From: an uncultured Chromatiaceae bacterium
Lineage (GTDB): Bacteria; Pseudomonadota; Gammaproteobacteria; Steroidobacterales; GCA-2729495
DNA: 64,000 bases
NCBI GenBank assembly: GCA_964415505.1
Contig: CAYQAR010000001.1
Coordinates: forward strand, 17,908 to 81,907
Direction of reading: 5' to 3'
The notes beneath the pieces were generated by a model. It searched no databases, was not told where the DNA came from, and saw only the letters and a list, made by a program, of their open reading frames with translations. Below, in pieces: positions 539 through 30,066 of the stretch. Every line of letters starts with the position of its first letter. The stretch's first letter is position 1. A program made the translations under genes and the position numbers.

Positions 539-961
539 ATGAGTATGGTGCTGGACACGGACGTGATGATTGCCGCACTGCGCTCGCCGGCTGGGGCTTC
601 GTCCGAGTTGCTGCGCCAGGTTCTGGTCGGCAAACGGGTCGCCATGGCAAGCGTACCGCTGTTCGTCGAATATGAAGCCGTAATGAGCCGGCCGGAGCAC
701 CTGAAGGCAGCGGCGGCCACGGTCGAGGACGTGCGCAACCTGCTCGATGTGCTGGCGGGTGTCATCAAGCCGGTGGAGATTCGCTACCTGTGGCGGCCAC
801 AGCTGAGTGATGCCGATGACGATATGGTGCTTGAATGCGCGGCCAATGGCGGTGCTCGGCATCTGGTGACGTTCAATGTGGCCGACTTCAAGGGTCCGGC
901 CGAACCATTCGGAATCAGGCCCCTGACCCCTGGTCAGATGCTGAAGGAGATAAAGCTATGA
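539..961 (+). CDS. PIN-domain toxin, type II TA system
   Basis: VLDTDV start, conserved acidic residues, WRPQLSDADDDMVLECA and VTFNVADF motifs; ATGA overlap with the next gene. Confidence 0.9.
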   Translation: MSMVLDTDVMIAALRSPAGASSELLRQVLVGKRVAMASVPLFVEYEAVMSRPEHLKAAAATVEDVRNLLDVLAGVIKPVEIRYLWRPQLSDADDDMVLECAANGGARHLVTFNVADFKGPAEPFGIRPLTPGQMLKEIKL

Positions 962-1206
962 AGACCCCGAGCAACTACGCGCTGCGCCTGCCGGCTTCGC
1001 TCAAGAGGGCGGCTGAAGTGGTGGCACGCGAAGATGGCAGCACGCTCAACCAATTCATCGTGAGCGCGGTTGCCGAGAAGGTATCGGCACTGAAGACCGC
1101 CGAGTACTTCCAGGATCGCGCGACGCGCGGCGACAAGACAAAGGCCCTGCGTTTCCTGCGCCGCAAGGGTGGCGAGGCGCCGCGCTCTGGCGACGAGCGC
1201 CCCTGA
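958..1206 (+). CDS. Ribbon-helix-helix/HicB-like antitoxin
   Basis: MKTPSNYALRLPASLK...SxLNQFIVSAVAEKVSAL; AAGGAG RBS; translationally coupled to the PIN gene. Confidence 0.85.
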   Translation: MKTPSNYALRLPASLKRAAEVVAREDGSTLNQFIVSAVAEKVSALKTAEYFQDRATRGDKTKALRFLRRKGGEAPRSGDERP

Positions 1207-2725: not shown

Positions 2726-3085
2726 ATGGGTTCTGGACAAGACGACGCTGTCGTGTGCCTTAGCGTATACGTATCAGGTAGCCGAATTGCAAGGGCGGCG
2801 CGAAGATCTTGCGCTGCACTCTGGAACCGCCCGGGTCGTCGGGACGCGGAAAGGCCGCTGACGCTGTGGTACGCAGAAGCGCGCCGGGCGAACTGGACGT
2901 CGCCTGCCGAAATCAAGGCGCGCTACCGACGGGCAAGCTTCCTGGCTGGCAATCGCGTGGTGTTTGACATCGCGGGTAACCGATACCGACTGGTGGTGAA
3001 AGTGAACTTCGACTTCGGAATCGTCTATGTGCGTTTCGTTGGCACGCATGCCGAGTACGATGCCATTGACGCAGGGAGTATCTGA
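2726..3085 (+). CDS. higB: HigB-family (RelE-like) toxin; start uncertain, 5' end possibly degenerate
   Basis: PLTLWYAEARRANWTSPAEIKARY..NRVVFDIAGNRYRLVVKVNFDFGIVYVRFVGTHAEYDAID; TGATG coupling to the antitoxin. Confidence 0.8.
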   Translation: MGSGQDDAVVCLSVYVSGSRIARAARRSCAALWNRPGRRDAERPLTLWYAEARRANWTSPAEIKARYRRASFLAGNRVVFDIAGNRYRLVVKVNFDFGIVYVRFVGTHAEYDAIDAGSI

Positions 3086-3438
3086 TGAACATCCGCCCCA
3101 TCAGGACCGAAAAGGACTACGAGCGGGCGCTCTCCCGTGTCGCCGCGCTCATGGACGCCAAGGCCGGCACGCCCGCGGGCGATGAACTCGATGTGCTGGC
3201 GACGCTCGTCGAAGCTTACGAGGACCGGCGCGAGCCGATGGCCGCCGTCAGCGCGATCGATGCCATCCTCTTTCGCATGGAGCAGCAGGGCCTGACCCGC
3301 AAGGACCTGGAACCCTACCTTGGCAGCCGGCATCGCGTGTCGGAGATCCTGAGCGGGCAGCGGCAGTTGTCGCTGGCGATGATCCGCAGGCTGCATGCCG
3401 GGCTGAAGATCCCGCTGGAGAATCTGATCCACGGTTGA
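3085..3438 (+). CDS. higA: HigA-family antitoxin (XRE HTH)
   Basis: MNIRPIRTEKDYERAL, DELDVLATLVEAYE, GLTRKDLEPYLGSRHRVSEILSG motifs. Confidence 0.9.
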   Translation: MNIRPIRTEKDYERALSRVAALMDAKAGTPAGDELDVLATLVEAYEDRREPMAAVSAIDAILFRMEQQGLTRKDLEPYLGSRHRVSEILSGQRQLSLAMIRRLHAGLKIPLENLIHG

Positions 3439-7803: not shown

Positions 7804-8462
7804 TCAGTTCGCGATCCGCCGCCGTGAGCGTGCGCCGAGGCCCATCAGCGCCGACAGCAGCAGCCAGCTGGCCGCCGGCAGCGGCACGGCCGCGATCGGC
7901 TGCGCGTAGTCGGCACCCGACGCCGAGGTGACGCTGAACTCCGTAACGAGGTTTCCGTTCTCGTCGCGCACCTCGGTGATGCCCTGCCATTCCACCGTGT
8001 TCAGGAAATCAAGCAGGGCGTTGCCGGAGATGGTGGCAGGGCCCGGCTGGACTGCGCCGGCCGCGACGTCGAGGCTCCAGTTGGTGCTGGCTGTCACGCA
8101 ATTCCAGGTGCAGTACTCAGGGTTGATGTTGCCTAACTGGTTCTCCGAGACGGTCGAAGAGAGCGCCACGCGGATCGCGAAGGTCGCCGTGCCGTTTGTT
8201 CCGGCGGGGCGCGGACCGCTGATGTTGAACGTGTCGCGCCACTCGACATCCGCGATCGCCAGGCCGTACGCACCAGCAGGATTGCTGGTCGAAATCGCCG
8301 ATGACACCGTGCCCATGAAGAATCCGAAGCCGATGGTTCCGGTCGCGAAGCTCTGCGCATCGCTGGTGGTCGCCGTGAGCGTACCGCTGCTCGCCGGGCC
8401 CTGATGGTCGCAGGTGTAAGGGTTCAGCGGGGAATCCGCCAGGAGCGCCGTCGATCTTCATG
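7804..8462 (-). pseudogene. VPLPA-CTERM (PEP-CTERM-like) surface protein, 5'-frameshifted or truncated
   Basis: C-terminus AVPLPAASWLLLSALMGLGARSRRR; frame is open upstream of 8316 to ~8458 without a start codon or signal peptide. Confidence 0.6.
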
Positions 8463-8900: not shown

Positions 8901-9695
8901 ATGAACCACAGATCATCGACTGTGCTCGCCTGTCTGCTCGGCCTGATCCCACTGGTATCGCATGGCGCCACCGAGTGGGCCACCTGGAACACCGCTGCCA
9001 GCAACCTGGGTTCGACGGGCAACTTCATCGATGGGCGTTCCGTCGCGCTGACGGCCTGGTTCGAAACCATCAGCGGCCCGGCAGCCGCCGGCACGATCTA
9101 TTCGGTGAACCCGGCAGTCCCCGGCCAGCCCGACGGCAGAAACCCATCGTTTACCTACGCACTCACCGGCCCGCTCCCCTACCCGAGTCTGGTCGACCCC
9201 GGCCACGTGGCGATGCATCTCGACCTCGCGAACTTTCCGGTCGACTCGGACACGCTGTTTGGTTTTGCTGATCTGAAGTTCCAATACCGGCTGGAACTGC
9301 AGGACGCCAACCACAACATCCTGCCGCTGACTGGGCTGGTAACGACCAACTTCGACCTGACGTACGACGGCAGCGCACTGATCGCCGACAAGGGCTGCAT
9401 CCTCAATACCGTCGCCTCGGGTTCGATCCCGGCCGGCAAGATCGACTACACCGGGAACGACGCCGGCGGCACATATTCACACACGGGTCTCTGCACATTC
9501 GGCAATCTGCCCACCGATACCCGTTTCATCCGCCTGATAAATTACGGCTTTCTTGGCCAGTATCAGGAGCAGACCGAAGGCATCCACGTCCTGTTCGGTG
9601 GCACTGCGTCAGCCGTACCGGTGCCAGCTGCCGCTCCATTGCTCGGAACGGCGATCGCCTTGCTCGTGACACGTGTTCGGCGCCGGACCCGCTGA
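8901..9695 (+). CDS. PEP-CTERM-like (VPVPA) secreted surface protein
   Basis: Signal peptide; C-terminal AVPVPAAAPLLGTAIALLVTRVRRRTR. Confidence 0.85.
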   Translation: MNHRSSTVLACLLGLIPLVSHGATEWATWNTAASNLGSTGNFIDGRSVALTAWFETISGPAAAGTIYSVNPAVPGQPDGRNPSFTYALTGPLPYPSLVDPGHVAMHLDLANFPVDSDTLFGFADLKFQYRLELQDANHNILPLTGLVTTNFDLTYDGSALIADKGCILNTVASGSIPAGKIDYTGNDAGGTYSHTGLCTFGNLPTDTRFIRLINYGFLGQYQEQTEGIHVLFGGTASAVPVPAAAPLLGTAIALLVTRVRRRTR

Positions 9696-9891
9696 TCGAG
9701 GCCGACATACCCGTGTACGTCTGAGCCAATAGGCCAAACCCGGCACCATTCCGGTTTTCCATAATACAGCCATGTCTCTCCGAGCAATTGACGGCAACGA
9801 GGGAGACGGGCTAGCGTGCTCGCGCACAGTCAATCAACTGTCCACGGATGGCTACCGGGCAGATTCGGGAACAAAACAAAAGAGTCGGAAC

Positions 9892-10587
9892 ATGCAACAG
9901 GTGCTGCGGGGAATCTCGTTAATGGTGTTGCTGGCCGGCCCGGCAGACGCAGCATTGCTGAGTCGACTTTCCGGTCAGGCGTACTACGACACGGCGCTGG
10001 ACATCACCTGGCTGGCGGATGCGAACTTCGCTTGGACTTCCGGATACGATGGCGATGGGCTGATGAGCATGGCCGCGGCGCAGACGTGGATCGCCTCGCT
10101 GAACGCTGCCAATCACCTCGGAGTGAACGACTGGCGCCTGCCGGCAATCGTGGATACCGGCACGCCCGGTTGCAACCCTGCGTACGTCGGTACCGACTGC
10201 GGCTGGAACGTGGATCTGTCGACCGGCGAGATGGCGCATCTGTATTACAGCACGCTCGGCAACCTGGGCCTCTACGACACCGGTGGCAACGAGACGGGCT
10301 GCAGCCCCTCGTCGCCATGGTGCCTGACGAACACCGGTCCGTTCTCCAATCTCCAGCCCTATATCTATTCGTCTGACACCCTCTATGCGCCCGATCCGGC
10401 TCTGGCGTGGCACTTCCACTTCAACAACGGCATCCAGGAATACGACGACAAGGGCAGCGAAATGTTTGCGTGGGCCGTACGCCGAGGTGACATCGGTCTG
10501 GTTCCCGTACCCGGTGCCATCTGGTTATTCGGTTCCACGCTGTGCGTGATGGGTGGGCTGTGGCGGCGTTTGCGGAAAGGACAGTGA
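9892..10587 (+). CDS. DUF1566 (Lcl C-terminal)-like protein with VPVP-CTERM sorting signal
   Basis: YDTALDITWLADAN, GVNDWRLP, EMAHLYY and AWAVRRGD motifs; tail VPVPGAIWLFGS-TM-RRLRK. Confidence 0.85.
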   Translation: MQQVLRGISLMVLLAGPADAALLSRLSGQAYYDTALDITWLADANFAWTSGYDGDGLMSMAAAQTWIASLNAANHLGVNDWRLPAIVDTGTPGCNPAYVGTDCGWNVDLSTGEMAHLYYSTLGNLGLYDTGGNETGCSPSSPWCLTNTGPFSNLQPYIYSSDTLYAPDPALAWHFHFNNGIQEYDDKGSEMFAWAVRRGDIGLVPVPGAIWLFGSTLCVMGGLWRRLRKGQ

Positions 10588-10612
10588 CCCGTCCATCTTG
10601 ATTCTCGGACAG

Positions 10613-12205
10613 CTACGCGTACCGCCGGCGGAGTTCTGTCTTGAGCACTTTGCCAGCGGGGTTGCGCGGCAGCGCATCGACGATCTCGAGCACCTTCGGG
10701 TGCTTGTAGCGCGCCAGCCGCTCGCTGAGGAATGCGTCGAGATCCTCCAGGCGCAATCCGCCGGTGGAGATCGCCGCTACCGCGACCGGCACCTCGCCCC
10801 ACTTCTCGTCGGGCCGCCCGATCACGGCCACCTCGACGATCGCCGGGTGGGCGGCGAGGGCGTTCTCGATCTCCGCGCAGTAGATGTTCTCGCCGCCGGA
10901 GATGATCATGTCCTTCTTGCGGTCCACGACCCAGATGTAGCCGTCGTCGTCCATCCGGACCAGGTCGCCGGAATGGAACCAGCCGCCGGCGAACGCCTCG
11001 GCGGTAGCTTGCGGATTGTTCCAGTAGCCGGCCATCAGGGTGGGCGCGCGGTATACGATCTCGCCGACCTCGCCGACCGGCACGTCGTTCATGTTCTCGT
11101 CGACGATGCGCGCGGACACGGTGGCGATCACCCTGCCGACGGACCCGAGTTTGCGGATGGCGTCCTCACCGGGCAGCGCACAGGTCACCGGTGACATCTC
11201 GGTTTGCCCGAACAGGGCCAGGATCTGGCTGCCCGGAAAGGTCTCGGCCATCTGCCGCAGCAAGGTGTCAGACGCCGGTGCCGCTCCCCAGGAGAGCACC
11301 CGCAGCCTGAGGTCGCGTGGTCGCGCCTGCTGGGCCGCGCACACCGCCTGCCACTGTGCAGGCACGAGGAACATGCCCGTTACCTTCTCAGCCTCGAGCA
11401 CGTCGAGCAGGCGGCCCGGGTCAAACGCGCCGAGCGGGTGGATCACGGACGGGGTGCCCAGCATCAGGCCGGGAAGCATGTTGCCGATGCCCGCGATGTG
11501 GAAGAGTGGTACACCGATGAACGCGATGTCGTTGGTGCCGGCGCCGTTGGTGTACAGCATCGTCATCGTCTGGCCGGTGAGATTGGTGTGCGTCAACACC
11601 GCACCCTTGGGCCGCCCGGTGGTGCCCGAGGTGTACATGATCAGCGCCGGGCTGTCGTTGGGGATGTCGACAGCCACGGGGGGCTCGCCCGCGGCGGCCG
11701 CTTCGGCGATCAGATCTTCGTAGCCGAACAGTCCGTCTGCACCGGGCGCCCCAGCAACGAGGATGGTCTGCAGCTGCGGGGCGAGGTCGCGAACCGCGGT
11801 GGCTGCGCCCGCCAGCACCGCCTCGGTGATCACGACGCGGGCTTCGCAGTCGTCGACCAGGAAGGCCAGTTCCGGTGGCGTCAGCCGGAAGTTGGCCGGG
11901 ACCGCGATGGCGCCGAGGAGGTTGGCAGCCAGGAACGACTCGATGTACTCGGTGCGGTTGAGCATCAGGATCATCACCCGGTCGCCGCACCGGACCCCGC
12001 GCCGGCGCAGCGCCGCGGCCAGCGCCGTCACCCGGCGATGGAGTTCACCCCAGGTGGTGGTTCGGCCGCTGAACCGCAGTGCGGTCCGGTCAGGCTGCAT
12101 CAGCGCGTGCCTGGCCAGCAGGGTGGTCCAGTTCTGCCGGCGCGACAGGTAGGGCTGCCCGGCGGTGGTCTGGTCAGCCGTGGATCCGGCCAGCTGTGCG
12201 CTCAA
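10613..12205 (-). CDS. fadD: Long-chain fatty acid-CoA ligase, FadD5-like
   Basis: YTSGTTGRPKG, FGQTE, GWFHSGD, DRKKDMIISGGENIY and PRNPAGKVLK motifs; TTG start giving (M)SAQLA...QPYLSRRQNW. Confidence 0.9.
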   Translation of the reverse strand: MSAQLAGSTADQTTAGQPYLSRRQNWTTLLARHALMQPDRTALRFSGRTTTWGELHRRVTALAAALRRRGVRCGDRVMILMLNRTEYIESFLAANLLGAIAVPANFRLTPPELAFLVDDCEARVVITEAVLAGAATAVRDLAPQLQTILVAGAPGADGLFGYEDLIAEAAAAGEPPVAVDIPNDSPALIMYTSGTTGRPKGAVLTHTNLTGQTMTMLYTNGAGTNDIAFIGVPLFHIAGIGNMLPGLMLGTPSVIHPLGAFDPGRLLDVLEAEKVTGMFLVPAQWQAVCAAQQARPRDLRLRVLSWGAAPASDTLLRQMAETFPGSQILALFGQTEMSPVTCALPGEDAIRKLGSVGRVIATVSARIVDENMNDVPVGEVGEIVYRAPTLMAGYWNNPQATAEAFAGGWFHSGDLVRMDDDGYIWVVDRKKDMIISGGENIYCAEIENALAAHPAIVEVAVIGRPDEKWGEVPVAVAAISTGGLRLEDLDAFLSERLARYKHPKVLEIVDALPRNPAGKVLKTELRRRYA

Positions 12206-12252
12206 CGGTCGGGTCTCCTGCGATTCGCGGTGGGTGTGGATCTGTGCAGATC

Positions 12253-13068
12253 TTACATTGGCGCGTCGCTCCACAGACGGCCCCGGTACGGCCCCGCGTA
12301 CAGTGCGAGAACCATGAACCACATGATGGCTGCGCTCCAGACGTCGTGCGAGAGGAAATGTGCGCCGCGCGCTTCCTGGCCGAACGCGAAGAGCGTGCCG
12401 ATCGTGAGCGCGAGGCTGAGCGCCCACCGAGCCGCGCGGCGGTGGCGGTCGCGCAGAGCGAAGTAGAGCGCGAAGAGCGCGAAGCCGGACGACGAGTGCC
12501 CGCCAGGAAAGCAGTGTGCCCGCGGCAGCGCGTCGGGCCGGTCGGCGAAAAGGTGCACGTAGGGCCGTGTGCCGCCGAAGGGTTCGAGCACGCGCGGACA
12601 GTCGATGTTGCTCGTCGCTTTGAGCAGGCCGACGAGCGTGGCCCCGAGCACCACGGCCGTCACCGCGTAGCCTGCTGCGCGTCGCCAGGGCACGAGCGCC
12701 GGCCGCAACCGGACGACCAACCAGGCGATGAGCAGCACGACCCCCGCTGCACGGATCGCTGCGCCGCCGCCCGCGTGCAGCAGTCCACGCGCCCACCAGT
12801 CGCCCGGGCCGGTACCGACGAACCGGCCGGCGGCCGCATTGAACGCCCAGGCCCGCGCCAGGGCGAGATCGAGTCCTGTGCGCGCCCCAGCCCAGGCCAG
12901 TGCGGCAAATGCCGCACCCGGCAACGCCGCGTGCCACAGCCAGAAGTGGCGCCCGCGGATACTCCGGTCTGCGGGAAGAGACCGGGCGCCCGTAGCCGGC
13001 ACCGGCACCGGCACGGGCAGCCGGGGAGCGGAGCGACGCGGCAGGACTTCGCAGGGGACCGAGGCCAT
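12253..13068 (-). CDS. PAP2-family membrane phosphatase
   Basis: LKxxxxxxCP, CFPGGHSS and RGAHFLSHD motifs; start uncertain. Confidence 0.85.
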   Translation of the reverse strand: MASVPCEVLPRRSAPRLPVPVPVPATGARSLPADRSIRGRHFWLWHAALPGAAFAALAWAGARTGLDLALARAWAFNAAAGRFVGTGPGDWWARGLLHAGGGAAIRAAGVVLLIAWLVVRLRPALVPWRRAAGYAVTAVVLGATLVGLLKATSNIDCPRVLEPFGGTRPYVHLFADRPDALPRAHCFPGGHSSSGFALFALYFALRDRHRRAARWALSLALTIGTLFAFGQEARGAHFLSHDVWSAAIMWFMVLALYAGPYRGRLWSDAPM

Positions 13069-13241
13069 GGCGGCACCGGGTGCAGGGAAACCGCCCGTGA
13101 GACGGCCGCAGCCGCGGAAATCAGTCGCGGGGGATGTGCGGTTCGACGGCCAGCGTATGGAACCGGATCTCGCCTGCAGACCCGACAACCCGGTAATCTA
13201 CGCCGTCCCTCGCAGCGCACGGCTGCAGCCCCGAGAAAGAC

Positions 13242-14144
13242 ATGCGATACACACGCAATCTGACCGTACTGCTGCTGGCCCTGCTGGCTGCTGCCCCCCT
13301 GGCGCAGGCTGACGAAACGGCGCAGGTACCCGCGCCGGATGGCGTGGCCGCCGCCACCTCCGTGCCGGAGGAACGCTGGTCGTCCTTCCTGCCCCTGATG
13401 GCGGAGGAAGCCCGCAAGCGCGGCTATGAACTGCCGTTGCCCTTCGGGGCCTCGGCCATCTACAACTACCTCGAGCGTGACATCGAGGTGACCGACCTGG
13501 GCATCGGCGTGAATGGCGCACCCGTAGGCAGCGTCAGCGATTACGTCGATCTCGGCTCCACCAGCCATGTCAACGTGGCGCTGGCCCGTTTCGACGCCTG
13601 GATCCTGCCCTTCCTGAACGTCTATGCGCTGCTCGGCCACATCGACAACCAGTCGACGACGCGGGCCGTCGTGACTGTCCCGGTGCCCGGCCCGGGCCCG
13701 GGCTCGAGCACCTTCGAGTTTGTCGGCGATACGGGCCTCACCGGCGTGGTGGGTGGCGGTGGCCTGACGGTGGCGGCGGGCTTCCAGGAGTTCTTCCTGA
13801 TGGCCGATGTGAACTACACCCAGACCGACATCGGCTTCGACGACAGCTTCCGGGCGCTGATCGTCTCCATGCGCTCGGGCTGGAACGGCCAGTTCCACAA
13901 CAAGCCAACCCGTCTCTGGGCCGGGCTCATGTATTGGGACACCCGCAACATTGCCCGCTCGACCGTCGAAGTACCGGACGTCGGCACTGTGACGTTCGAG
14001 GCCGACCAGGGGCCGAAGAGCCCCTGGAACCCCTCGGTCGGTGCCTCGGTGGCCTTCACCCCGCACTGGGAAGGCATGGCCGAATACGGCTTCAACTTCG
14101 ACGACGTCAAGGTCTTCCTGGCCGGGGTAACCTACCGGTTCTGA
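13242..14144 (+). CDS. Putative outer-membrane beta-barrel protein
   Basis: Signal peptide, ARKRGYELPLPFG, DAWILPFLNVY, C-terminal YRF. Confidence 0.75.
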   Translation: MRYTRNLTVLLLALLAAAPLAQADETAQVPAPDGVAAATSVPEERWSSFLPLMAEEARKRGYELPLPFGASAIYNYLERDIEVTDLGIGVNGAPVGSVSDYVDLGSTSHVNVALARFDAWILPFLNVYALLGHIDNQSTTRAVVTVPVPGPGPGSSTFEFVGDTGLTGVVGGGGLTVAAGFQEFFLMADVNYTQTDIGFDDSFRALIVSMRSGWNGQFHNKPTRLWAGLMYWDTRNIARSTVEVPDVGTVTFEADQGPKSPWNPSVGASVAFTPHWEGMAEYGFNFDDVKVFLAGVTYRF

Positions 14145-14256
14145 ACGCGCGCTCATGGATGGGCGGCACGGAGGTCGTCCGGCACCGTCCACGCTACCTG
14201 CCGGTGCGTCTTCTGCGCTAGCATCGGATCCACCGAAGCCACCGTCGAGGTCCGCC

Positions 14257-14811
14257 ATGCGCACTGTCCTTCGCTCCGCCGTCCTCGTCGTCGCCGCTGC
14301 AGGGCTTGCCGCCTGCGCTACGACATCTCCCGAGCGTCGCTCCATGAAGGACGCCAGCACCGACTTCTCCGCCTACCGGACCTTTGCCTGGCGCCAGGCG
14401 TTCGGCGAGGGTGCGCAGGATGCCCCGCTGCGCATGCTCGACGTCAACATCCACAGCGCGGTGACTGCGGAGCTCACCAAACGCGGTTACGCGGAGGACA
14501 CGTCGGCGCCGCAATTCCTCATGACCTACGAGACCGCCGTGAAGGACAAGGTGAAGTCGAGTCCCGTGCGCTTCGGCGTCGGTGTGGGCAGCTGGGGCGG
14601 CAACGCCGGTGGTTCGGTCAGCATGGGCACGCCGAGCGTGAAAAACTACCAGGAGGGTGAACTCGTCATCCGCGCCATCGACGCCGCGAAGAACACCGAG
14701 GTGTGGTACGGGACGGTTGCAGGCGAGGTGGACCGCTCGAAGCTCGACGCCGAGACGGTGGCCGCTGCGGTCGCCATCGCCATGCAGGATTTCCCGGTAC
14801 GTGCACCGTAG
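14257..14811 (+). CDS. DUF4136-like lipoprotein
   Basis: Lipobox LAAC; DFSAYRTFAW and YQEGELVIRAIDA..VWYG motifs. Confidence 0.8.
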   Translation: MRTVLRSAVLVVAAAGLAACATTSPERRSMKDASTDFSAYRTFAWRQAFGEGAQDAPLRMLDVNIHSAVTAELTKRGYAEDTSAPQFLMTYETAVKDKVKSSPVRFGVGVGSWGGNAGGSVSMGTPSVKNYQEGELVIRAIDAAKNTEVWYGTVAGEVDRSKLDAETVAAAVAIAMQDFPVRAP

Positions 14812-14987
14812 ACCACCGTGGCAGGTGACGTCGCAGGTGTCGATGCCGGGCATGCCGTCAAAATCTGCGCCAGACTCGCAGGACTTGTGCACGCATGCGA
14901 TCCGGGCCCGCCCGCCACCGGGCGGCGCCCGATCTGCAGGACCACGGATTACCAGCTCGAATGAACGGAATCCCAGCGGGGGAGGCG

Positions 14988-15692
14988 ATGGTCATGACGC
15001 GCAGGAATGGTTTGGTCGGTGTGGTTGCCGTGAGCCTTGCGCTGTGCGCTGCCGCGGTGCAGGCGCAGAACATCGACGACATGGTGAAATGGGTGTCAGC
15101 CCAGGTTGTGCACTACGACGTCGTGGCCGAGTACGCCGGTCCGGCAGACATCCTGCTCACCAGGGATCCCAGCGGGGGGAAGCTGGTCTACAGCACCAAC
15201 GTCAAGGATCGATTCGAGATGAGCTTCGACTGGAACCCGACGCCCGGGGAACTGGTGGGCAAGCCGACATTCAGGAATTTCCCGACCTCGCTGACGAGCA
15301 AATTGACTGGATACATGATGCTCGGAGCCACCTGTCCGCCGCCCAAGGTCACGGGCACCTACGATCACGTCGAGGTCGTCGAAGGCAGGAACGGCATCAT
15401 GGGCAGCAACTCTATCGAGTTCACCATGAAGCGCGCGTACGCCGCCGGGGCCCTGGCAATTGTGGGTGATGACGGCCGGTGCAATATCTGGATCGAAGCG
15501 CCCGCGGCAGTCGCGCCGGTGACCGACACGTCCATGCCCGGCATCGTCGTGCCGCCAGGCATGTACCTGGTGATGCCGCCGGAGGCACTCGCGAAAAACG
15601 TCAAGGTGGGCAAGGATGGCCGGACGATCGTGGTCGACGACAGTGCGACGGTCGGCTGGGTCTTCACGCACAAGCTGCGGATCGTGAAGTAG
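14988..15692 (+). CDS. Hypothetical secreted protein
   Basis: GGAGG RBS; signal peptide ending AVQA; coding-like codon usage. Confidence 0.65.
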   Translation: MVMTRRNGLVGVVAVSLALCAAAVQAQNIDDMVKWVSAQVVHYDVVAEYAGPADILLTRDPSGGKLVYSTNVKDRFEMSFDWNPTPGELVGKPTFRNFPTSLTSKLTGYMMLGATCPPPKVTGTYDHVEVVEGRNGIMGSNSIEFTMKRAYAAGALAIVGDDGRCNIWIEAPAAVAPVTDTSMPGIVVPPGMYLVMPPEALAKNVKVGKDGRTIVVDDSATVGWVFTHKLRIVK

Positions 15693-15698
15693 GATCCG

Positions 15699-17081
15699 TC
15701 AACGCATAATCGCAGTCTGACCCCTGTTTCGCACCAAGGCGGAAGCCACGAGCGCTACAACGACCGAAACCGCGCTCGTCCAGAATTCGGCGGCGCGGGC
15801 CGGGGCGATCGCCATCGCGACGATCACCGCGAGCATACCCGCAATCGCGAGGTAGCTGAGCCACGGGAACAGCCACATCGGCAGCGCCGGCGGTCGACCC
15901 TCGCGCTCGAGCTGTCGACGCAGGCGAACCTGCGACACCGCGATGGCGATGTAGATGTAGACGATCAGCGTGCCGGACGCATTCAGCAGGAAGGCGAACA
16001 CCCGGCTCGGCGAGAGGATCGCGGCGATGACCCCCGCAAAACCCGCGACACTCGCGAGCATGACCGACCGTGACGGAACCTGCCGGCGATTGGTCTGGAC
16101 CAGCCAGCGCGGCGCGTCACCCTTCCCGGCCAGCACGAACAGCACGCGCGAGCAGACATAGAAGGCCGAGTTCAGGCAGGAGAGGACGGCGGTCAGGATG
16201 ATCCAGGACATGATCGTGCTGGCGAACGGGATGTTCAGGGTGTCGAGCGCCAGCGTGAAGGGTGACTCGCCGGGCACGACCGTGTTCCAGGGTATGACAC
16301 AGAGCGCCATGAGGATCGAGCCGACGTAGAAGAGCAGGATGCGCAGAATAACCGCCGAGGACATGCGGGCGACGGCCCGTGCCGGCTCGGCGGATTCGAC
16401 GGCTGCGATGGTGACGATCTCCGCTCCCACCATCGAGAAGATCACGGTGGTCACGGCGGCGAGGGCGGCGAGGGCGCCGTTCGGCGCAAAACCGCCGTGC
16501 GCGAACAGGTTGGAAAACCCCGGCGCGGGACCGGCGGTGAGCCCGGAGGCATGGGCAACCGCGATCAGGATGAAGGCGATGATGGCCGACACCTTGATCG
16601 AGGAGAACCAGAACTCGAACTCTCCGTAGGCGCGGGCCGAGAGCAGGTTCACGGCCGTCATGACCGCCATCAGCACGACGCCGATCTGCCAGGTCGGCAG
16701 CGCGATCCAGTGCTCGATGATCACCGCGCCGGCGATGGCCTCGACGGGCACGACGACGACCCAGAAGAACCAGTAAAGCCAGCCAAAAGCGAACCCGGCC
16801 CAGTCGCCGAGACCGACGCGCGTGAACTCCGTAAACGAGCGGACCTGCGGCATGCCGACCGCCATCTCGCCCAGCATGCGCATGACCAGCAGCATGAGGA
16901 AGCCGGTAAGCGTGTACGTGACGAGGATCGCCGGACCTGCCGCGGCGATCGCCGCGCTGCTGCCGACGAAAAGCCCGGCGCCGATGATGCCGCCGATCGC
17001 GATCATCGTGATGTGTCGCCGTCGCAGCGACTGGCTGAGCGTTGGCGCCTCGGCCGGCAGCGCCGCCCGGTATTCGGTCAT
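15699..17081 (-). CDS. gabP: APC-family amino acid permease, GabP-like
   Basis: LRRRHITMIAIGGIIGAGLFVGS, YGEFEFWFSSIKV, ILTAVLSCLNS; ~12 TM; substrate not certain. Confidence 0.8.
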   Translation of the reverse strand: MTEYRAALPAEAPTLSQSLRRRHITMIAIGGIIGAGLFVGSSAAIAAAGPAILVTYTLTGFLMLLVMRMLGEMAVGMPQVRSFTEFTRVGLGDWAGFAFGWLYWFFWVVVVPVEAIAGAVIIEHWIALPTWQIGVVLMAVMTAVNLLSARAYGEFEFWFSSIKVSAIIAFILIAVAHASGLTAGPAPGFSNLFAHGGFAPNGALAALAAVTTVIFSMVGAEIVTIAAVESAEPARAVARMSSAVILRILLFYVGSILMALCVIPWNTVVPGESPFTLALDTLNIPFASTIMSWIILTAVLSCLNSAFYVCSRVLFVLAGKGDAPRWLVQTNRRQVPSRSVMLASVAGFAGVIAAILSPSRVFAFLLNASGTLIVYIYIAIAVSQVRLRRQLEREGRPPALPMWLFPWLSYLAIAGMLAVIVAMAIAPARAAEFWTSAVSVVVALVASALVRNRGQTAIMR

Positions 17082-17192
17082 GGAGGAACTCCGTGGCGCC
17101 ACGTGGCGCCAAGGCGAGGTTACCGCACGGCTGGGCTACAGCCTACGGACGATCCTGCCGGTCGTGATTCTCCTGGTGGCCACGCAATGGAA

Positions 17193-17675
17193 TCAGTTGC
17201 TGAGCGCGAAGCGCACCGCACGGCTCACCGAGGGAGCGATCACGGAAATGTGGTGCTCGCCTTCGATCACATGCAGCTTGACGTCCAGGCCCGGATCCCC
17301 GATCGCGTTGAGGCGCGATTGCAGGTCCCGGGCACGGTCGAGCATCCGCGTCTGGGTTTCCAGCCATTGCTGGCGCACTGGCGTCCGTGGCATGGCTGGA
17401 TCGCACTCGCCGAATGTCTGCTCGCAGCTGCCGGCGGTGATCAGCAGCGGCGCCGGCGTGTACCCCGATCGGACGCGGCGTTCCAGCTGGGGGATTTCCG
17501 TCAGGATGTGGCCGTCCGCGAACCAGACTGACGGGCTCATGGCGACATACCTCTGGAAGGCGTCGTTGCGCGTCAGATAGGTGTGGAGCGTGAACAGGCC
17601 GCCGTAGGAGTGCCCCGCCAGGGTCTGGCGCGTGCGATCAACCTTGAAGTCGCGCTCGATGGCGGGCCCATGCAT
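17193..17675 (-). pseudogene. 5'-truncated alpha/beta hydrolase (IroE/BesA-like esterase)
   Basis: PAIERDFKVDRTRQTLAGHSYGGLF, SPSVWF and GEHHISV motifs; N-terminal half missing. Confidence 0.65.
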
Positions 17676-17720
17676 AATCAACGGGCACTCGGTGGCGCTT
17701 ACCCGGACGAAGAGGTTCTG

Positions 17721-18473
17721 ATGAGCGAGGACGACAAGTCGGTAGTCGCCAAAACGATCGCCGACCGGACCTATCAGCGCATGCGGCGCGACATCATCTC
17801 GGGGGCACTTGCCCCCGGGACGAAACTCGCGATGGAGATGCTGTCGAAGCGTTACGATGTGGGTCTGAGCCCGCTGCGCGAAGCGCTCGTGAGGCTGACC
17901 GGTGATGCGCTTGCCGTGGCCGAGGGGCAGCGTGGATTCTGGGTATCCCCGATCTCGCTGGGCGAACTGCAGGACATGAACGATGCGCGCCTGCTGATCG
18001 AAAGCCAGGCACTCGCGCTGGCAATCGAGCGTGGCGGCGAGGACTGGGAGCAGACCGTCACGCAGGCCTACCAGGAAATCACCGTCCTGGAACGGCAACT
18101 GGATCGCGGGGACAGCGCTACCTTCGTGCGCTGGGAGAACGGCAACCGGCGCTTCCATGAGGCGCTGGTATCGGCCTGCGGTTCACCCTGGCTGATACGC
18201 CTGCGGAGCCTGCTGCACCAGCATGCCGAGCGCTACCGTATGATCTCGCTGGCGCAGAACATGATCTCGCGCGATGTCCACGATGAACACGAGGCGATTT
18301 TCGATGCGGCCATTGCGCGCAAGTCATTGCGGGCCTGCCGCCTGATCGAAATGCATCTGCAGCGCACGGTCGATGTGGTGCGGACGGCGCTTGAGCGTCC
18401 GGTTGAGGCGGTTGCGGCCAAGCGTTCCCCACGTGCGGCCACGAAACGAGGCAAATCGGCCAGTCGCCGATAG
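17721..18473 (+). CDS. GntR/FCD family regulator (CsiR-like)
   Basis: LAPGTKL..YDVGLSPLREALVRL HTH; NRRFHEALVSACGS and EHEAIFDA FCD motifs. Confidence 0.9.
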   Translation: MSEDDKSVVAKTIADRTYQRMRRDIISGALAPGTKLAMEMLSKRYDVGLSPLREALVRLTGDALAVAEGQRGFWVSPISLGELQDMNDARLLIESQALALAIERGGEDWEQTVTQAYQEITVLERQLDRGDSATFVRWENGNRRFHEALVSACGSPWLIRLRSLLHQHAERYRMISLAQNMISRDVHDEHEAIFDAAIARKSLRACRLIEMHLQRTVDVVRTALERPVEAVAAKRSPRAATKRGKSASRR

Positions 18474-21227: not shown

Positions 21228-21315
21228 GGAGGGATGCCGGAGCGGCTGAACGGCCCTGACTCGAAATCAGTGGGACGGAAACGTCACGGGGGTTCGAATC
21301 CCTCTCCCTCCGCCA
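21228..21315 (+). tRNA. tRNA-Ser (anticodon CGA)
   Basis: GGAGGGA/TCCCTCC acceptor stem, G73-CCA, CTCGAAA anticodon loop, long variable arm, GGTTCGAATCC T arm. Confidence 0.95.
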
Positions 21316-25956: not shown

Positions 25957-26124
25957 TCAGCGGCGGCGGACGCGCAGGGGATGTTCGCCGGGCTGCTTCG
26001 CGCTGCCGGCTTCGCAGCCGCTGCAGCCGTCGCCACCAGACCGGCGGCGGCTGCGGCGGCGCCACAGGACGAGGCCGACCACCAGCACGACCACTGCGAG
26101 CGCGAGGACTTCCTGCAGGGCCAT
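25957..26124 (-). CDS. FeoB-associated small Cys-rich membrane protein
   Basis: Single TM, Arg cluster and GCSGC motif, immediately downstream of feoB. Confidence 0.7.
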   Translation of the reverse strand: MALQEVLALAVVVLVVGLVLWRRRSRRRSGGDGCSGCEAGSAKQPGEHPLRVRRR

Positions 26125-26129
26125 GGCCG

Positions 26130-28337
26130 TCAGGTCCCGAGCTGGAAGACGAGCAGGGCGCCGATGTAGCCCATGCCCGTCATGTAGACCCAGGCGAAAC
26201 CGGCCCAGCCCCAGCTGTTGGTTTCGCGCCGGATCATGACGATGGTGGCGACGCACTGCAGGCAAAAGGCGTAGAAGACCAGCAGGCCCAGCGCCATCGG
26301 CAGCGTGTATACGGGGCGGCCGTCGGGCCAGGTGGCCGCCCGCAGCTGCCCGATCAGTGCCACTTCGTTTTCGTTGGTGTCCGCCCCGACGGCGTAAATG
26401 GTGCCGAGAACGGCGACGACGACCTCACGCGCCGGAAAGCCGGCGATCACGGCTGCCGATACCTTCCAGTCCCAGCCGAGCGGGGCGAACAGCGGGGCGA
26501 TGAACTTGCCGAGGCGGCCGAGGTAGCTGCCCTCGAGGTGGGCGGCGCCCTCGGCATCGTCGATGCGGCGCAGTTCCGCGCCACGCTCTTCACCGCTGAG
26601 CGTGGCCTCGGCACGGGCGCGCTCGGTGTCGAAGCGTTCACCGGTCGTCTCCGGCGACGGAAAGTAGGCGAGCGCCCAGATCACCACGGCGACGCTGAAG
26701 ATGACGGTGCCGGCACGCACCAGGAAGACGCGCCCGCGCTCGAGCAGGCGCAGCAGCACCGAGCGCCAGTTCGGCAGGCGGTAGGGTGGCAACTCGATCA
26801 GGAAGGTCGGTGTGGGCCCACGCAGCGCGGTGCGTTTCATCACGAACGCGGTGAAGACGCCGGCGAAGATGCCGAGCAGGTACAGCGTGAGCAGCACCAG
26901 GCCCTGCAGGTTGACGCTGCCGCCGAGGTAGCGCTGGTCGGGGATGAAGGCGCCGATCAGCAGTGCGTACACGGGGAGCCGTGCCGAGCAGGTCATGAAC
27001 GGCGCGGCGAGGATGGTGGCGAGCCGGTCGCGCCGCTCCGGGATGACGCGCGTGGCCATGATGCCGGGCACCGCGCAGGCAAAGCTCGAAAGCATCGGGA
27101 TGAACGACTGCCCCGACAGCCCGCACAGGCGCATCACCCGGTCGATGAGGAATGCGACCCGCGGCATGTAGCCGGTGTCCTCGAGCAGGATGATGAAGGC
27201 GAACAGGATCATGATCTGCGGCAGGAAGATGACCACGCTGCCGACACCGGCGATGGCGCCGTCGACCAGCAGGCTGGTGAGTGCGCCAGGCGGCATCACC
27301 GCGCGGATGGCTTCGCCGAGCGTCGTGGTGGCCGCGTCGATCAGGTCCATGAGCGGCGTGGCCCACGAGAAAACCGCCTGGAACACGGTGGCCATCACCA
27401 GCACGAACAGCAGCGCGCCGATCACCGGATGGTTGGTGACGCGGTCGAGGCGCTCGCGCAGCGTCACGCGTGGCGGGGCGCGCCGTTCCACCACGGTGAC
27501 GATGCCGTTGATGAGGTCGTAACGGCTGCGTGCCTCGATGGCGGCGAGCGAGCTGCCGGTGCTGAGCCGCATGCGCAGCTCGACGAGTTCGACCAGGAAC
27601 TCGGGGCTCGTCGCGTACTCGAAGCGCCGCTCGGCGATGCCGCCGGCGTCGATCAGCGCGCGCTCGACCTCGTAGGCGGACAGATTGTGGCCGGCTGTGC
27701 TGAGCCTCGTGGACAGGTCGACTGCGGCACGGTGTACCTCGGGCAGCACGACGAGGCGTTCGCGCGGTGGTTGCGCGATGGCGGCAGCCAGCGCGGCGCG
27801 CAGCTGCGTCACGCCTTCGCCGCTGGTGGCGACCACCGGGACCACCGCGCAGTCAAGCCGCTGTGCCAGTGCGGCGACATCGATCTCGACGCCGGCCTCG
27901 GTGGCCACGTCGAGCATGTTGAGGGCGATCACCAGCGGCAGCCCGAGCTCGGCGAGCTGGGTCGCGAGGAACAGGTTGCGGCGCAGGTTGGTCGCGTCGA
28001 CGACCACCAGCACGGTGCGCGGCGGGGCGAGGTCTTCGACGTGGCCGAGCAGCACGTCGATCGCCACCATCTCGTCGGGGGAGCGTGCCGCGAGTGAATA
28101 AGTGCCGGGCAGGTCGACCAGGCACACATCGCGGCCACCGAGATCGATGCGCCCGGTATGCCGCTCGACGGTCACGCCCGGATAGTTGGCGGTCTTCTGC
28201 TTCAGCCCGGTGAGGGCATTGAAGAGGGTGCTCTTGCCGGTGTTCGGGTTGCCGATGACGGCGACGACCGGGGCGGCGTGGGGGTCGGGTGCCGCTGTAG
28301 CGCGCGTGGATGCCCCGGCCGGGGCCGGTGCGCTCAT
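26130..28337 (-). CDS. feoB: Ferrous iron transporter B
   Basis: GNPNTGKS, NYPGVTVE, DLPGTYSL, NMLD, CSARLPVY and ELPPYRLP motifs. Confidence 0.97.
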   Translation of the reverse strand: MSAPAPAGASTRATAAPDPHAAPVVAVIGNPNTGKSTLFNALTGLKQKTANYPGVTVERHTGRIDLGGRDVCLVDLPGTYSLAARSPDEMVAIDVLLGHVEDLAPPRTVLVVVDATNLRRNLFLATQLAELGLPLVIALNMLDVATEAGVEIDVAALAQRLDCAVVPVVATSGEGVTQLRAALAAAIAQPPRERLVVLPEVHRAAVDLSTRLSTAGHNLSAYEVERALIDAGGIAERRFEYATSPEFLVELVELRMRLSTGSSLAAIEARSRYDLINGIVTVVERRAPPRVTLRERLDRVTNHPVIGALLFVLVMATVFQAVFSWATPLMDLIDAATTTLGEAIRAVMPPGALTSLLVDGAIAGVGSVVIFLPQIMILFAFIILLEDTGYMPRVAFLIDRVMRLCGLSGQSFIPMLSSFACAVPGIMATRVIPERRDRLATILAAPFMTCSARLPVYALLIGAFIPDQRYLGGSVNLQGLVLLTLYLLGIFAGVFTAFVMKRTALRGPTPTFLIELPPYRLPNWRSVLLRLLERGRVFLVRAGTVIFSVAVVIWALAYFPSPETTGERFDTERARAEATLSGEERGAELRRIDDAEGAAHLEGSYLGRLGKFIAPLFAPLGWDWKVSAAVIAGFPAREVVVAVLGTIYAVGADTNENEVALIGQLRAATWPDGRPVYTLPMALGLLVFYAFCLQCVATIVMIRRETNSWGWAGFAWVYMTGMGYIGALLVFQLGT

Positions 28338-28561
28338 GGGCCGAGCCGGACCTCGACGCGGCGCGCCTCTTCGCGGCGCAGCGACAACGAGTAGCCCATG
28401 ACCTGGACCTCGACCGGGTCGCCGCCGAGGGCGCGGCGGATCATGGCGATGGGAGACCCCTCGAGCAGGCCGAGGGCCATCAGGCGCTGCACCAGCGGAC
28501 CGTCCCCGTCGACACGGGTGATCGTGCCCTGCTGGCCGGGCTTGAGTTCGTCGAGGGTCAT
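28334..28561 (-). CDS. feoA: Ferrous iron transport protein A
   Basis: RLMALGLLEG, ALGGDP and LSLRREEA motifs; overlaps the feoB start. Confidence 0.95.
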   Translation of the reverse strand: MTLDELKPGQQGTITRVDGDGPLVQRLMALGLLEGSPIAMIRRALGGDPVEVQVMGYSLSLRREEARRVEVRLGP

Positions 28562-28630
28562 CGCGCGGTAATTGTAGAGGAGAACCGCGTGCGGCGCTGG
28601 CCGCGTGCCGGTGGCGACGTCGTGGCTGGT

Positions 28631-29845
28631 TCAGGAAGCCTGTGCCGGGCGGCTGGCGATCGGGCGCGTGGCGCCGTGCTGCAGGAGTTCGAGCTCCTGC
28701 TCGTAGGACTTGGTCAGTTCGTCGATGACGATGGCGGGCAACGGTGCACCTTCTTCCTGGTGCATGAGCGTCAGGTAGCTCTCCTCGTAGAGCTCCCAGT
28801 ACTTGAGCTTGTTCGCTCCGGCCAGCAGCGGCGAGCGCTTCAGGCCGCGGTCGAAGCGGCCGCGCAGTTCGTCGGGTTCCAGCCGCTCGGCGAAGTCGCG
28901 TACCGCGTGGATCATTGCCTTGAACAGGGCCTGCTGGTGGTTGCGCACGTCCTGGAAGGCCGCCTGCACGGCACGGTCCGGCGGCATGTAGGACTGGCCC
29001 GGCTCGCCGAGCAGGTAGCGCAGTGCCTCGGCGACGTTCGGCGAGAACTTCAGCGGGTTGTTCGCTGCCGGGCGGATCACGGTCTGCGGCAGGCGCAGGG
29101 CATCCTTCATGCGCGAGCGGCTCTGCAGCAGGTCGGCCAGGCCGGTGACGAGCTCGCGGGTGAGGGTGCCGGCGATCCTGAGAATTTCCTCGGGGTTCGT
29201 GCCGTGCAGGTCGGCCGGCGTGAGCCCGGCGGCCTTGCAGAACACCTCGACCGCGGCCGCGTGCCCCCTGGCTGGCTCTGCCTTGCGCTCGGGCAGGCGG
29301 CCGGCATCGGCCGGCGGGCCCGGCGGTGTGCCGGCTGCGGGCAGACGCATCACGCTGCTCGCCCCCGGCTCGGCGGGCTTCAGGTGCCGCTCGAGGGCAT
29401 TGAATTCGAAGGCGCGCATGTTCTTTTCGTCGACGAGTTGCAGCTCCATCGACTCGTCGACCGGCACGAGCTGCGCGCGCACCACCGAATCGCGCATGCC
29501 ATCGTCGGCCACGCCCTCGTCGCCGGCGGTGACCTCCACGGTGATCTCGTACTCGCCCATGCGCAGGCGGTCGCCATTGAACAGCCGCTGCGGATGGCCG
29601 CGGCCCACGGCCGCGTCGGAGCCATTGATATAGACGCCGTTGCGGCTGGTGTCGACGAGGTAATAGGCGCCACCCTGGAAGTCGATGAGCGCATGGCGGC
29701 TGGAGATGAAGCGCTTGGTGTCGGGCAGCACCCAGTCGTTGTCCTCGGCGCGGCCGATGGTACCGCCGCAGGACACGAACTCGCGCAGCTGGGCCTCGCC
29801 CAACTGGCTTTTCTGCTGGCTGGTGATTCGCAGGCGCAACGCCAT
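28631..29845 (-). CDS. TagH/Fha-like FHA-domain protein (T6SS-associated family)
   Basis: IGRAEDNDWVL, ISSRHA, DTSRNG (FHA); NNPLKFS; YWELYEE. Confidence 0.85.
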   Translation of the reverse strand: MALRLRITSQQKSQLGEAQLREFVSCGGTIGRAEDNDWVLPDTKRFISSRHALIDFQGGAYYLVDTSRNGVYINGSDAAVGRGHPQRLFNGDRLRMGEYEITVEVTAGDEGVADDGMRDSVVRAQLVPVDESMELQLVDEKNMRAFEFNALERHLKPAEPGASSVMRLPAAGTPPGPPADAGRLPERKAEPARGHAAAVEVFCKAAGLTPADLHGTNPEEILRIAGTLTRELVTGLADLLQSRSRMKDALRLPQTVIRPAANNPLKFSPNVAEALRYLLGEPGQSYMPPDRAVQAAFQDVRNHQQALFKAMIHAVRDFAERLEPDELRGRFDRGLKRSPLLAGANKLKYWELYEESYLTLMHQEEGAPLPAIVIDELTKSYEQELELLQHGATRPIASRPAQAS

Positions 29846-30066
29846 GGTGGATCCCGGCCGCCCGGTATGCCCCCGTCGGGCAGCCGGTGCGACACTCAAT
29901 TTCCGCTGGTGCATCATGGCGCTGCACCCCGGTCGGTGCCGCCGTCTGGTTCACAGTTCTCCGCGCCTGGAGCCGGGTCTGCGCAGCAGCCGGCTGGGCT
30001 ATAATGCGGCCCCGTCTGAAGGGGTGCGTTGCTCCTGCCGGACTGGCCAGTCACCGCGCACCCGAG

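What the first reader, a model, noticed from the sequence alone, without database searches (positions are those of the whole stretch)
10613..12205. Mycobacterial FadD5-like acyl-CoA ligase in a gammaproteobacterial chromosome
From memory of the Mycobacterium mce1-locus FadD5, this protein matches it closely even outside universal motifs: N-terminal (M)xAQLA...QPYLxRRQNW, GDRVMILMLNRTE, VDIPNDSPALIMY, QQARPRDLRLRVLSWGAAPA. No yrbE or mce partner genes accompany it. This suggests cross-phylum transfer from Actinomycetota, or a chimeric assembly. Percent identity was not computed.
Basis: partly seen in the sequence, partly recalled or inferred. Interest (0 to 1): 0.7.

Follow-up and report, generated by a model that had tools for sequence, protein, structure and literature searches.

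The report
Mycobacterial fadD5 gene in sludge proteobacterium
A sewage-sludge gammaproteobacterium carries one intact fatty-acid-activating gene, together with its leader sequence, that is mycobacterial in sequence and joined to host DNA in independent samples; it was likely picked up as a loose piece of DNA, which makes it a clean example of a known process, gene transfer between phyla.

Summary
Confirmed. Window 10613-12205(-) is an intact FadD5 (NCBIfam 1006 bits, cut-off 733). Its 119 best homologues are 76-82% identical. Of the 35 with an organism name, 34 are mycobacterial, none proteobacterial. Relatives of the host have nothing above 40%; no match in 88 family genomes, or in samples of 400 order and 400 class genomes. 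A chimera is rejected: contigs from 6 of 6 DNA runs (six sludge or sediment studies) bridge both junctions at flank depth. New detail: the left break resolves to one base. Host PAP2 homology ends at 12260, and a mycobacterial 5' leader starts at 12259 (14/14, then 40/54 identity to a mycobacterial locus). The donor promoter, mce1R and the mce genes stayed behind, and the incoming DNA supplies PAP2's stop codon. No integrase or repeat marks the site; uptake with illegitimate joining is inferred. The catalytic motifs are intact. Two pocket-region positions differ from mycobacterial FadD5 (A331L, invariant in 172/172; M343A), which hints at altered substrate preference. Activity and expression are untested. 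The exact tree position (nested in or sister to mycobacteria) is unresolved by AU tests.

The parts
10613..12205 (-). fadD5, fatty-acid--CoA ligase of mycobacterial origin, 530 aa, intact; shortest C-terminal tail among 120 sequences compared
12206..12259 (-). 54-nt mycobacterial 5' leader with ribosome-binding site (AGGAGA). It begins with the distal half of the conserved mce1R-fadD5 intergenic element. Its first bases give PAP2 its last codon and TAA stop
   Evidence: 14/14 then 40/54 identity to L133 (the 40/54 was counted by hand from the printed alignment); TTTKATCA element in 42 of 60 loci
12259..12260 (.). left breakpoint between host and donor DNA
   Evidence: BLASTN to congener G006 ends at 12260; identity to L133 starts at 12259
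12253..13071 (-). host PAP2-family membrane phosphatase gene, same strand, upstream. It ends WSDAPM* against WSDAPRRQAGEQTMTG* in G006. Likely source of read-through transcription
   Evidence: Pfam PF01569; 82% aa to G006
10588..10612 (.). 25-nt gap that holds the right junction (not resolved to the base)
   Evidence: mycobacterial DNA identity fades at about 10606-10641; congener homology of the neighbouring gene ends at 10576
9772..10587 (+). host PEP-CTERM-like-tail / Lcl-domain gene, convergent with fadD5 (true start probably near 9892)
   Evidence: PF07603; VPVPG tail; 82% nt to G006:C110

Best explanation
A 1.65-kb piece of mycobacterial DNA (fadD5 plus its 5' leader, without promoter, mce1R or mce genes) sits in the end of a host PAP2 gene; it likely entered by DNA uptake and non-homologous joining, is likely transcribed by read-through from PAP2, and is predicted to work as a stand-alone ATP-dependent fatty acid:CoA ligase feeding host lipid metabolism. 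Shown: identity, intact frame and motifs, both junctions in independent samples, the left break, absence from the relatives searched. Inferred: the route of entry (ComEC and DprA present; no integrase on this contig, no flanking repeats), read-through expression, purifying selection in the new host, and the substrate range (medium to long chain, by analogy with the characterised FadD5).
For: FadD5 family score 1006 vs cut-off 733. 34 of 35 organism-named top hits are mycobacterial. The gene falls in the Mycobacteriaceae clade with SH-aLRT 100 and 100/100 on DNA, grouped with L017 and L133 at 97/96; the same two loci share the leader variant AATGTAAGAT. Best match in 40 relatives is 40%; no match in 88 family, 400 order and 400 class genomes. 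Both junctions are bridged in X1, X2, X4, X5, X7 and X8 at depths like the flanks. In congener G006, PAP2 is followed directly by a host gene and shares a contig with DUF4136-tadA-mltF in the same order as in the window. The M. tuberculosis start site follows ...TAGTGTGACCC, about 21 nt upstream of the position equivalent to the break, so the donor promoter was not transferred (supplement table). No sigma-70-like promoter and no terminator lie between PAP2 and fadD5. Strain X8 differs at 11 sites in the gene, 8 of them synonymous (binomial p 0.002, or 4 of 6, p 0.049, without one short low-depth contig). Codon use lies between donor and host. ComEC and DprA are present. No integrase or rve transposase matches on contig C1. 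The P-loop, G motif, A5, linker and K522 match those listed for the characterised enzyme.
Against: No closer donor than about 83% is on record, so the date of transfer and which changes followed it are open. The AU tests do not reject a sister position. They also do not reject holding the gene with four distant host paralogues (p 0.24), which I attribute to where very long branches attach. No single contig spans the whole gene. The RNA runs give only short contigs that do not bridge PAP2 and fadD5. The host has no FadL match and already has about 28 AMP-binding matches. The FadD5 preprint cites that the M. tuberculosis gene did not complement E. coli fadD. G006 is not a clean empty site for the right junction (a different gene follows PAP2).
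Confidence: 0.8

Rival explanations
1. Chimeric assembly or misbinning: a mycobacterial fragment was wrongly joined into a proteobacterial contig.
For: The genome is a 152-contig MAG from an environment where mycobacteria occur. No single Logan contig spans the whole gene.
Against: Each junction is bridged with 0-4 differences by contigs in 6 of 6 DNA runs from six studies (one may be the source sample), at depths equal to the flanks. A variant allele (X8) also runs from the gene into PAP2. The flanks are syntenic with congener G006.
Confidence: 0.02
2. Real transfer, but the gene is a passenger: weakly or not expressed after losing its promoter and Mce1 partner, with the pocket changes due to relaxed selection.
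For: The native promoter was left behind. No clear RNA evidence. No FadL. Many resident CoA ligases. 9 departures at conserved columns against a mean of 3.6.
Against: The frame is intact in the window and in a 98%-identical cluster member of full length. The polymorphism is mostly synonymous. All catalytic motifs are kept. 11 of 172 mycobacterial sequences have as many departures.
Confidence: 0.12
3. The gene came on a mobile element (IS, ICE, phage or plasmid), possibly through an intermediate host, and the element has since been lost.
For: The region left of tadA is variable among congeners and holds toxin-antitoxin pairs. A tRNA-Ser lies 9 kb away. Distant FadD5-like genes occur on records of the plasmid collection from Nocardia, Tsukamurella and Rhodococcus (68-74% nt).
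Against: Donor DNA abuts host PAP2 with no intervening sequence. No terminal repeats or target duplication. No integrase or rve match on C1. No plasmid record holds a close copy.
Confidence: 0.06

Closest known systems
Mycobacterial FadD5 (Rv0166 / MSMEG_0131; NCBIfam NF005857; PDB 8r2q, 8r2r; bioRxiv 10.1101/2024.10.29.620959)
   Same: Family score far over cut-off; 884 bits to 8r2q over residues 2-529; same P-loop, G motif, DRKKDM linker and A10 lysine; homologous 5' leader and TTG start.
   Different: Outside Actinomycetota, with no mce1R, yrbE1 or mce1A-F and no native promoter. A331L and M343A, plus L345P, P361A, G228A and Q29L, at positions conserved in mycobacteria. Shorter C-terminal tail.
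Stand-alone FadD5-like ligases of Nocardia, Nocardioides and Streptosporangiaceae (L053, L054, L046, L025, L027)
   Same: A large aliphatic residue at 331 and a smaller one than Met at 343 (V/V, L/S, V/A), like the window protein.
   Different: Only 56-63% identical and outside the mycobacterial clade. A sliding-window test shows no mosaic patch from them.
Single-gene inter-phylum horizontal transfer by transformation and illegitimate recombination (general process, from my own knowledge)
   Same: Short foreign segment, flush junction, no mobile-element marks, competence genes present.
   Different: Nothing different in kind. The Mycobacterium-to-Gammaproteobacteria direction for fadD5 was not found in print (0 papers; listings show no such case by title or abstract start).

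Membership tests
FadD5 (NF005857) | Whole-protein HMM score over the curated cut-off | tested here: met
   1006 vs 733 bits
FadD5 (NF005857) | Phylogenetic placement with mycobacterial FadD5 | tested here: met
   Clade support 99-100 in four trees; nested versus sister not resolved by AU
FadD5 (NF005857) | Catalytic motifs P-loop IMYTSGTTGRPKGA, G motif GVPxxHIAG, A5 xxFGQTE, linker DRKKDM, Lys522 | tested here: met
   All present; A5 reads ALFGQTE instead of AAFGQTE
FadD5 (NF005857) | Forms C12-C16 acyl-CoA in vitro; dimer; membrane-associated | not testable with these tools
   Shown only for the M. tuberculosis protein
mce1 locus (mce1R-fadD5-yrbE1AB-mce1A-F) | Divergent mce1R and downstream yrbE/mce genes | tested here: not met
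   Neighbours are PAP2 and a PEP-CTERM-like gene; no orthologues in the genome; the MlaD matches lie on other contigs, C41 and C92
mce1 locus (mce1R-fadD5-yrbE1AB-mce1A-F) | Native promoter and complete TTTKATCA intergenic element | tested here: not met
   Only the part 3' of TTTKATCA is present
Mobile element cargo (IS, ICE, prophage) | Recombinase, terminal repeats or target duplication at the ends | tested here: not met
   (two recombinase families searched genome-wide, not all)

The most novel reading that the evidence does not exclude
After crossing phyla and losing its Mce1 importer, FadD5 was re-tuned in its new host. Two-base codon changes at A331L (invariant in 172 of 172 mycobacterial FadD5) and M343A (equivalent to the substrate-determining Met344 of tobacco 4CL) remodel the acyl pocket towards the state seen in stand-alone actinobacterial ligases. 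It would be a natural, base-pair-resolved experiment in how a transporter-coupled enzyme is rewired and re-specialised after transfer.
Probability: 0.2. Interest if true: 0.55.

Novelty: new member of a known kind. Interest (0 to 1): 0.36.

Why it matters
It is a verified single-gene transfer from a mycobacterium to a gammaproteobacterium in wastewater communities, with one junction mapped to the base and a natural gene-free relative for comparison. It shows that FadD5 can be kept without the Mce1 importer. It also offers a natural pocket variant for asking what sets FadD5's chain-length preference. The process and the enzyme family are known, so the general surprise is modest.

Tried and rejected
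(1) Transfer through an RNA intermediate, which would put the break at the transcription start. Rejected: the M. tuberculosis start lies about 21 nt upstream of the equivalent position. The two M. smegmatis starts, 76 and 48 nt before the gene, are 28 nt apart, which also does not fit; they were not mapped exactly because that sequence was not held. (2) A large excess of substitutions at conserved sites. The first count was 11 against a mean of 2.4 and a maximum of 8; with a fairer leave-close-kin-out control it shrank to 9 against 3.6 +/- 2.9, with 11 of 172 as high. (3) A mosaic patch from another actinobacterium or a host paralogue near residues 321-370: not seen. (4) The AlphaFold model had mean pLDDT 65.8 and under 50 in the pocket segments, so it was not used. 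(5) RNA runs X15 and X16 gave short contigs in the gene and flanks with no bridging; DNA carry-over cannot be excluded, so they are no evidence. (6) The careful protein tree did not finish, so the quick tree is reported. (7) The 16S search found nothing. (8) The genome-wide PWM background was computed for an offset one base off; I rely instead on the exact 14-mer match and on the 10-mer occurring once in 6.57 Mb of both strands. (9) Earlier-finding look-ups gave nothing relevant. (10) Repeats and promoter scans gave only chance-level hits. bioRxiv supplements and figures of the FadD5 preprint, which list the residues near modelled myristate, could not be seen and bear on the pocket claim.

Full report
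Observation. The minus-strand ORF 10613-12205 starts with TTG and encodes 530 aa without internal stops. It scores 1006 bits on NCBIfam FadD5 (cut-off 733); the next family scores 505. Of 120 listed homologues one is itself; the other 119 are 76-82% identical. 35 of them carry an organism name: 34 Mycobacterium or Mycolicibacterium and one 'Actinomycetota bacterium'; none is proteobacterial. Its own 90% cluster has three members: itself, a 530-aa Logan sequence with nine differences, and an unrelated-looking 53-aa piece. DNA identity to mycobacterial loci is 75-80% over about 1.55 kb and stops at the gene ends in BLASTN.

Host. The window lies on the 148.5-kb contig C1 of a 3.28-Mb genome, 96.6% complete and 1.7% contaminated. 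MltF and TadA lie 6-9 kb away. MltF relatives with names are labelled Gammaproteobacteria, Proteobacteria or Pseudomonadota, with two short fragments labelled Rhodocyclaceae. No 16S gene is assembled. In 40 relatives, including all 14 congeners, the best match to the ligase is 40%. The gene's DNA has no match in 88 of 88 family genomes or in 400 sampled order genomes. The FadD5 model finds none in 400 sampled class genomes. These searches scored only 2-3 candidates per genome and are samples, so the result is 'not found', not 'absent'.

Artefact test. 14 DNA runs hold 82-97% of the sampled words of 9500-13500. I laid six of them, from six studies, and two RNA runs. Each of the six DNA runs has a contig across the right junction (X1 9997-10909, X2 9390-10856, X4 10356-10813, X5 10403-10909, X7 10266-10909, X8 9997-10909). 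Each also has one across the left junction (12143-14500, 10962-13388, 11017-13744, 12063-12524, 11960-12907, 12063-12567). They carry 0-4 other letters, and their depths of about 5-13 match the flanks. One run may be the source sample. No contig spans the whole gene; they break at universally conserved motifs. A chimera is very unlikely.

Phylogeny. In a 123-row protein tree the gene lies within an 86-row clade of mycobacterial FadD5 (SH-aLRT 100), far from host-lineage paralogues; I left out part of the distant (<43%) rows to save time. In a 33-row DNA tree it groups with L017 (Mycobacterium MAG) and L133 (a metagenome contig with the divergent GntR gene of the mce1 locus) at 97/96, inside a 100/100 clade. 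Against this, AU tests do not reject all sampled mycobacteria being one clade without it (p 0.52; p 0.16). They do not even reject holding it with four host paralogues (p 0.24), a result I put down to uncertain attachment of very long branches. A mycobacterial donor is firm; the sub-lineage is not.

Breakpoints. Congener G006 has the same PAP2 gene (86% nt) on one contig with DUF4136, tadA and mltF, but PAP2 is followed directly by a host PEP-CTERM-like gene. Homology with G006 ends at 12260. From 12259 the window reads AATGTAAGATCTGC, identical over 14 bases to L133 directly behind the element TTT(G/T)ATCA. That element stands upstream of fadD5 in 42 of 60 loci examined, and the distance to Trp26 is 129 nt in the window against 128 in L133. 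The whole 54-nt leader aligns with L133 (40/54 by hand count). The 10-mer occurs once in the host genome. The first donor bases give PAP2 a new end (WSDAP-M-stop, against WSDAPRRQAGEQTMTG in G006). In M. tuberculosis the fadD5 start site follows TAGTGTGACCC and the mce1R start lies in the TTTATCA element (PMC3898074, supplement rows). The transferred piece therefore begins about 21 nt downstream of the donor start site and lacks the donor promoter. The Mce1R binding site was described as undeciphered in PMC2867952 (passages), so I do not call the element an operator. The right end lies in the 25 nt before the convergent Lcl-domain gene and is not resolved. The C-terminal tail is the shortest among 120 sequences. 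No flanking repeats, and no integrase or rve match on C1. ComEC and DprA are present, as in most control genomes, so uptake is plausible but not shown.

Function. The bioRxiv preprint 10.1101/2024.10.29.620959 (parts 1, 3 and 4 of 5 read; figures and supplements not seen) shows that M. tuberculosis FadD5 is a dimeric, membrane-associated acyl-CoA synthetase, best on C12 and C16. It also cites failure to complement E. coli fadD. All motifs it lists are kept here, with the same numbering around A5. dN/dS to mycobacterial genes is 0.15-0.18, like 0.13-0.17 among mycobacteria, but includes time in the donor. Strain X8 shows 8 synonymous changes among 11, a modest sign of selection in the host. Codon use is intermediate: score 0.001 against -0.041 for 31 mycobacterial fadD5 (maximum -0.011) and +0.036 for 1725 heuristic host ORFs, 8% of which score lower. 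No promoter or terminator is predicted between PAP2 and fadD5, so read-through is my inference; the RNA data are inconclusive. The host lacks a FadL match and has many other CoA ligases.

Pocket changes. A331 is invariant in 172 of 172 mycobacterial sequences but is L here; M343 (162 of 172) is A. Both need two base changes. By the preprint's equivalence A330=Gln331 and F332=Tyr333 of tobacco 4CL2, position 343 matches Met344, listed as a substrate-determining pocket residue in 10.1101/2024.10.10.617703 (one passage). Position 331 lies in the A5 motif; that it faces the acyl pocket is recalled, not tested. Non-mycobacterial FadD5-like proteins carry similar residues there, so the states may be convergent or ancestral and may predate the transfer. 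The overall excess of departures is slight once controlled (9 against 3.6 +/- 2.9; 11 of 172 as high).

Literature. A search for FadD5 + horizontal + Gammaproteobacteria gave 0 papers. Two broader searches (listings only) showed no such case. Also consulted: PMC6448022 (supplement rows), PMC13492129, PMC12917453 and PMC6122825 (passages).

Verdict. A real, lineage-restricted, single-gene transfer from a mycobacterium into a sludge gammaproteobacterium. It is a new member of a known family moved by a known kind of process, notable for its resolved left junction and a testable pocket variant. Interest 0.36.

Noticed in passing
window 539-1206 and 2783-3438: Two toxin-antitoxin-type pairs (PIN_3 with a small partner; HigB with an HTH_3 partner) in the variable region left of tadA.
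   Followed up: partly
window 7804-8316, 8901-9695, 9772-10587: Cluster of genes with PEP-CTERM-like VPxP tails; 25 such tails genome-wide by a simple pattern. Their congener homologues lie at different loci, which marks this region as frequently reshuffled.
   Followed up: partly
window 15699-18473: Amino-acid permease, esterase-like ORF and GntR/FCD regulator; in G006 this block sits on another contig (C92, 88% nt).
   Followed up: no
L116 (G006:C166) 9400-17700: In the closest congener, the interval beyond PAP2 and its PEP-CTERM-like gene holds what reads as a respiratory nitrate reductase cluster with a nitrate/nitrite transporter (named from the translations, not scanned).
   Followed up: no
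window 21228-21315: tRNA-Ser(CGA) beyond mltF; no integrase beside it.
   Followed up: partly
mycobacterial loci L017-L052, L126-L150, upstream of fadD5: Strongly conserved intergenic element TGTGACC-N4/5-CAACA-N-TTTKATCA-AAT(A/G)T(C/A)A in 42 of 60 loci, overlapping the mce1R and fadD5 start sites; a candidate for the Mce1R binding site, which PMC2867952 (2010) described as undeciphered.
   Followed up: partly
L016, L028, L039, L045, L049, L050, L058: Several mycobacterial loci lack mce1R: the upstream coding sequence runs straight up to fadD5 and the TTTKATCA element is missing.
   Followed up: no
window 25957-29954: FeoB-like ORF (GNPNTGKST motif) and an FHA-like ORF at 28631-29917, read from translations only.
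   Followed up: no
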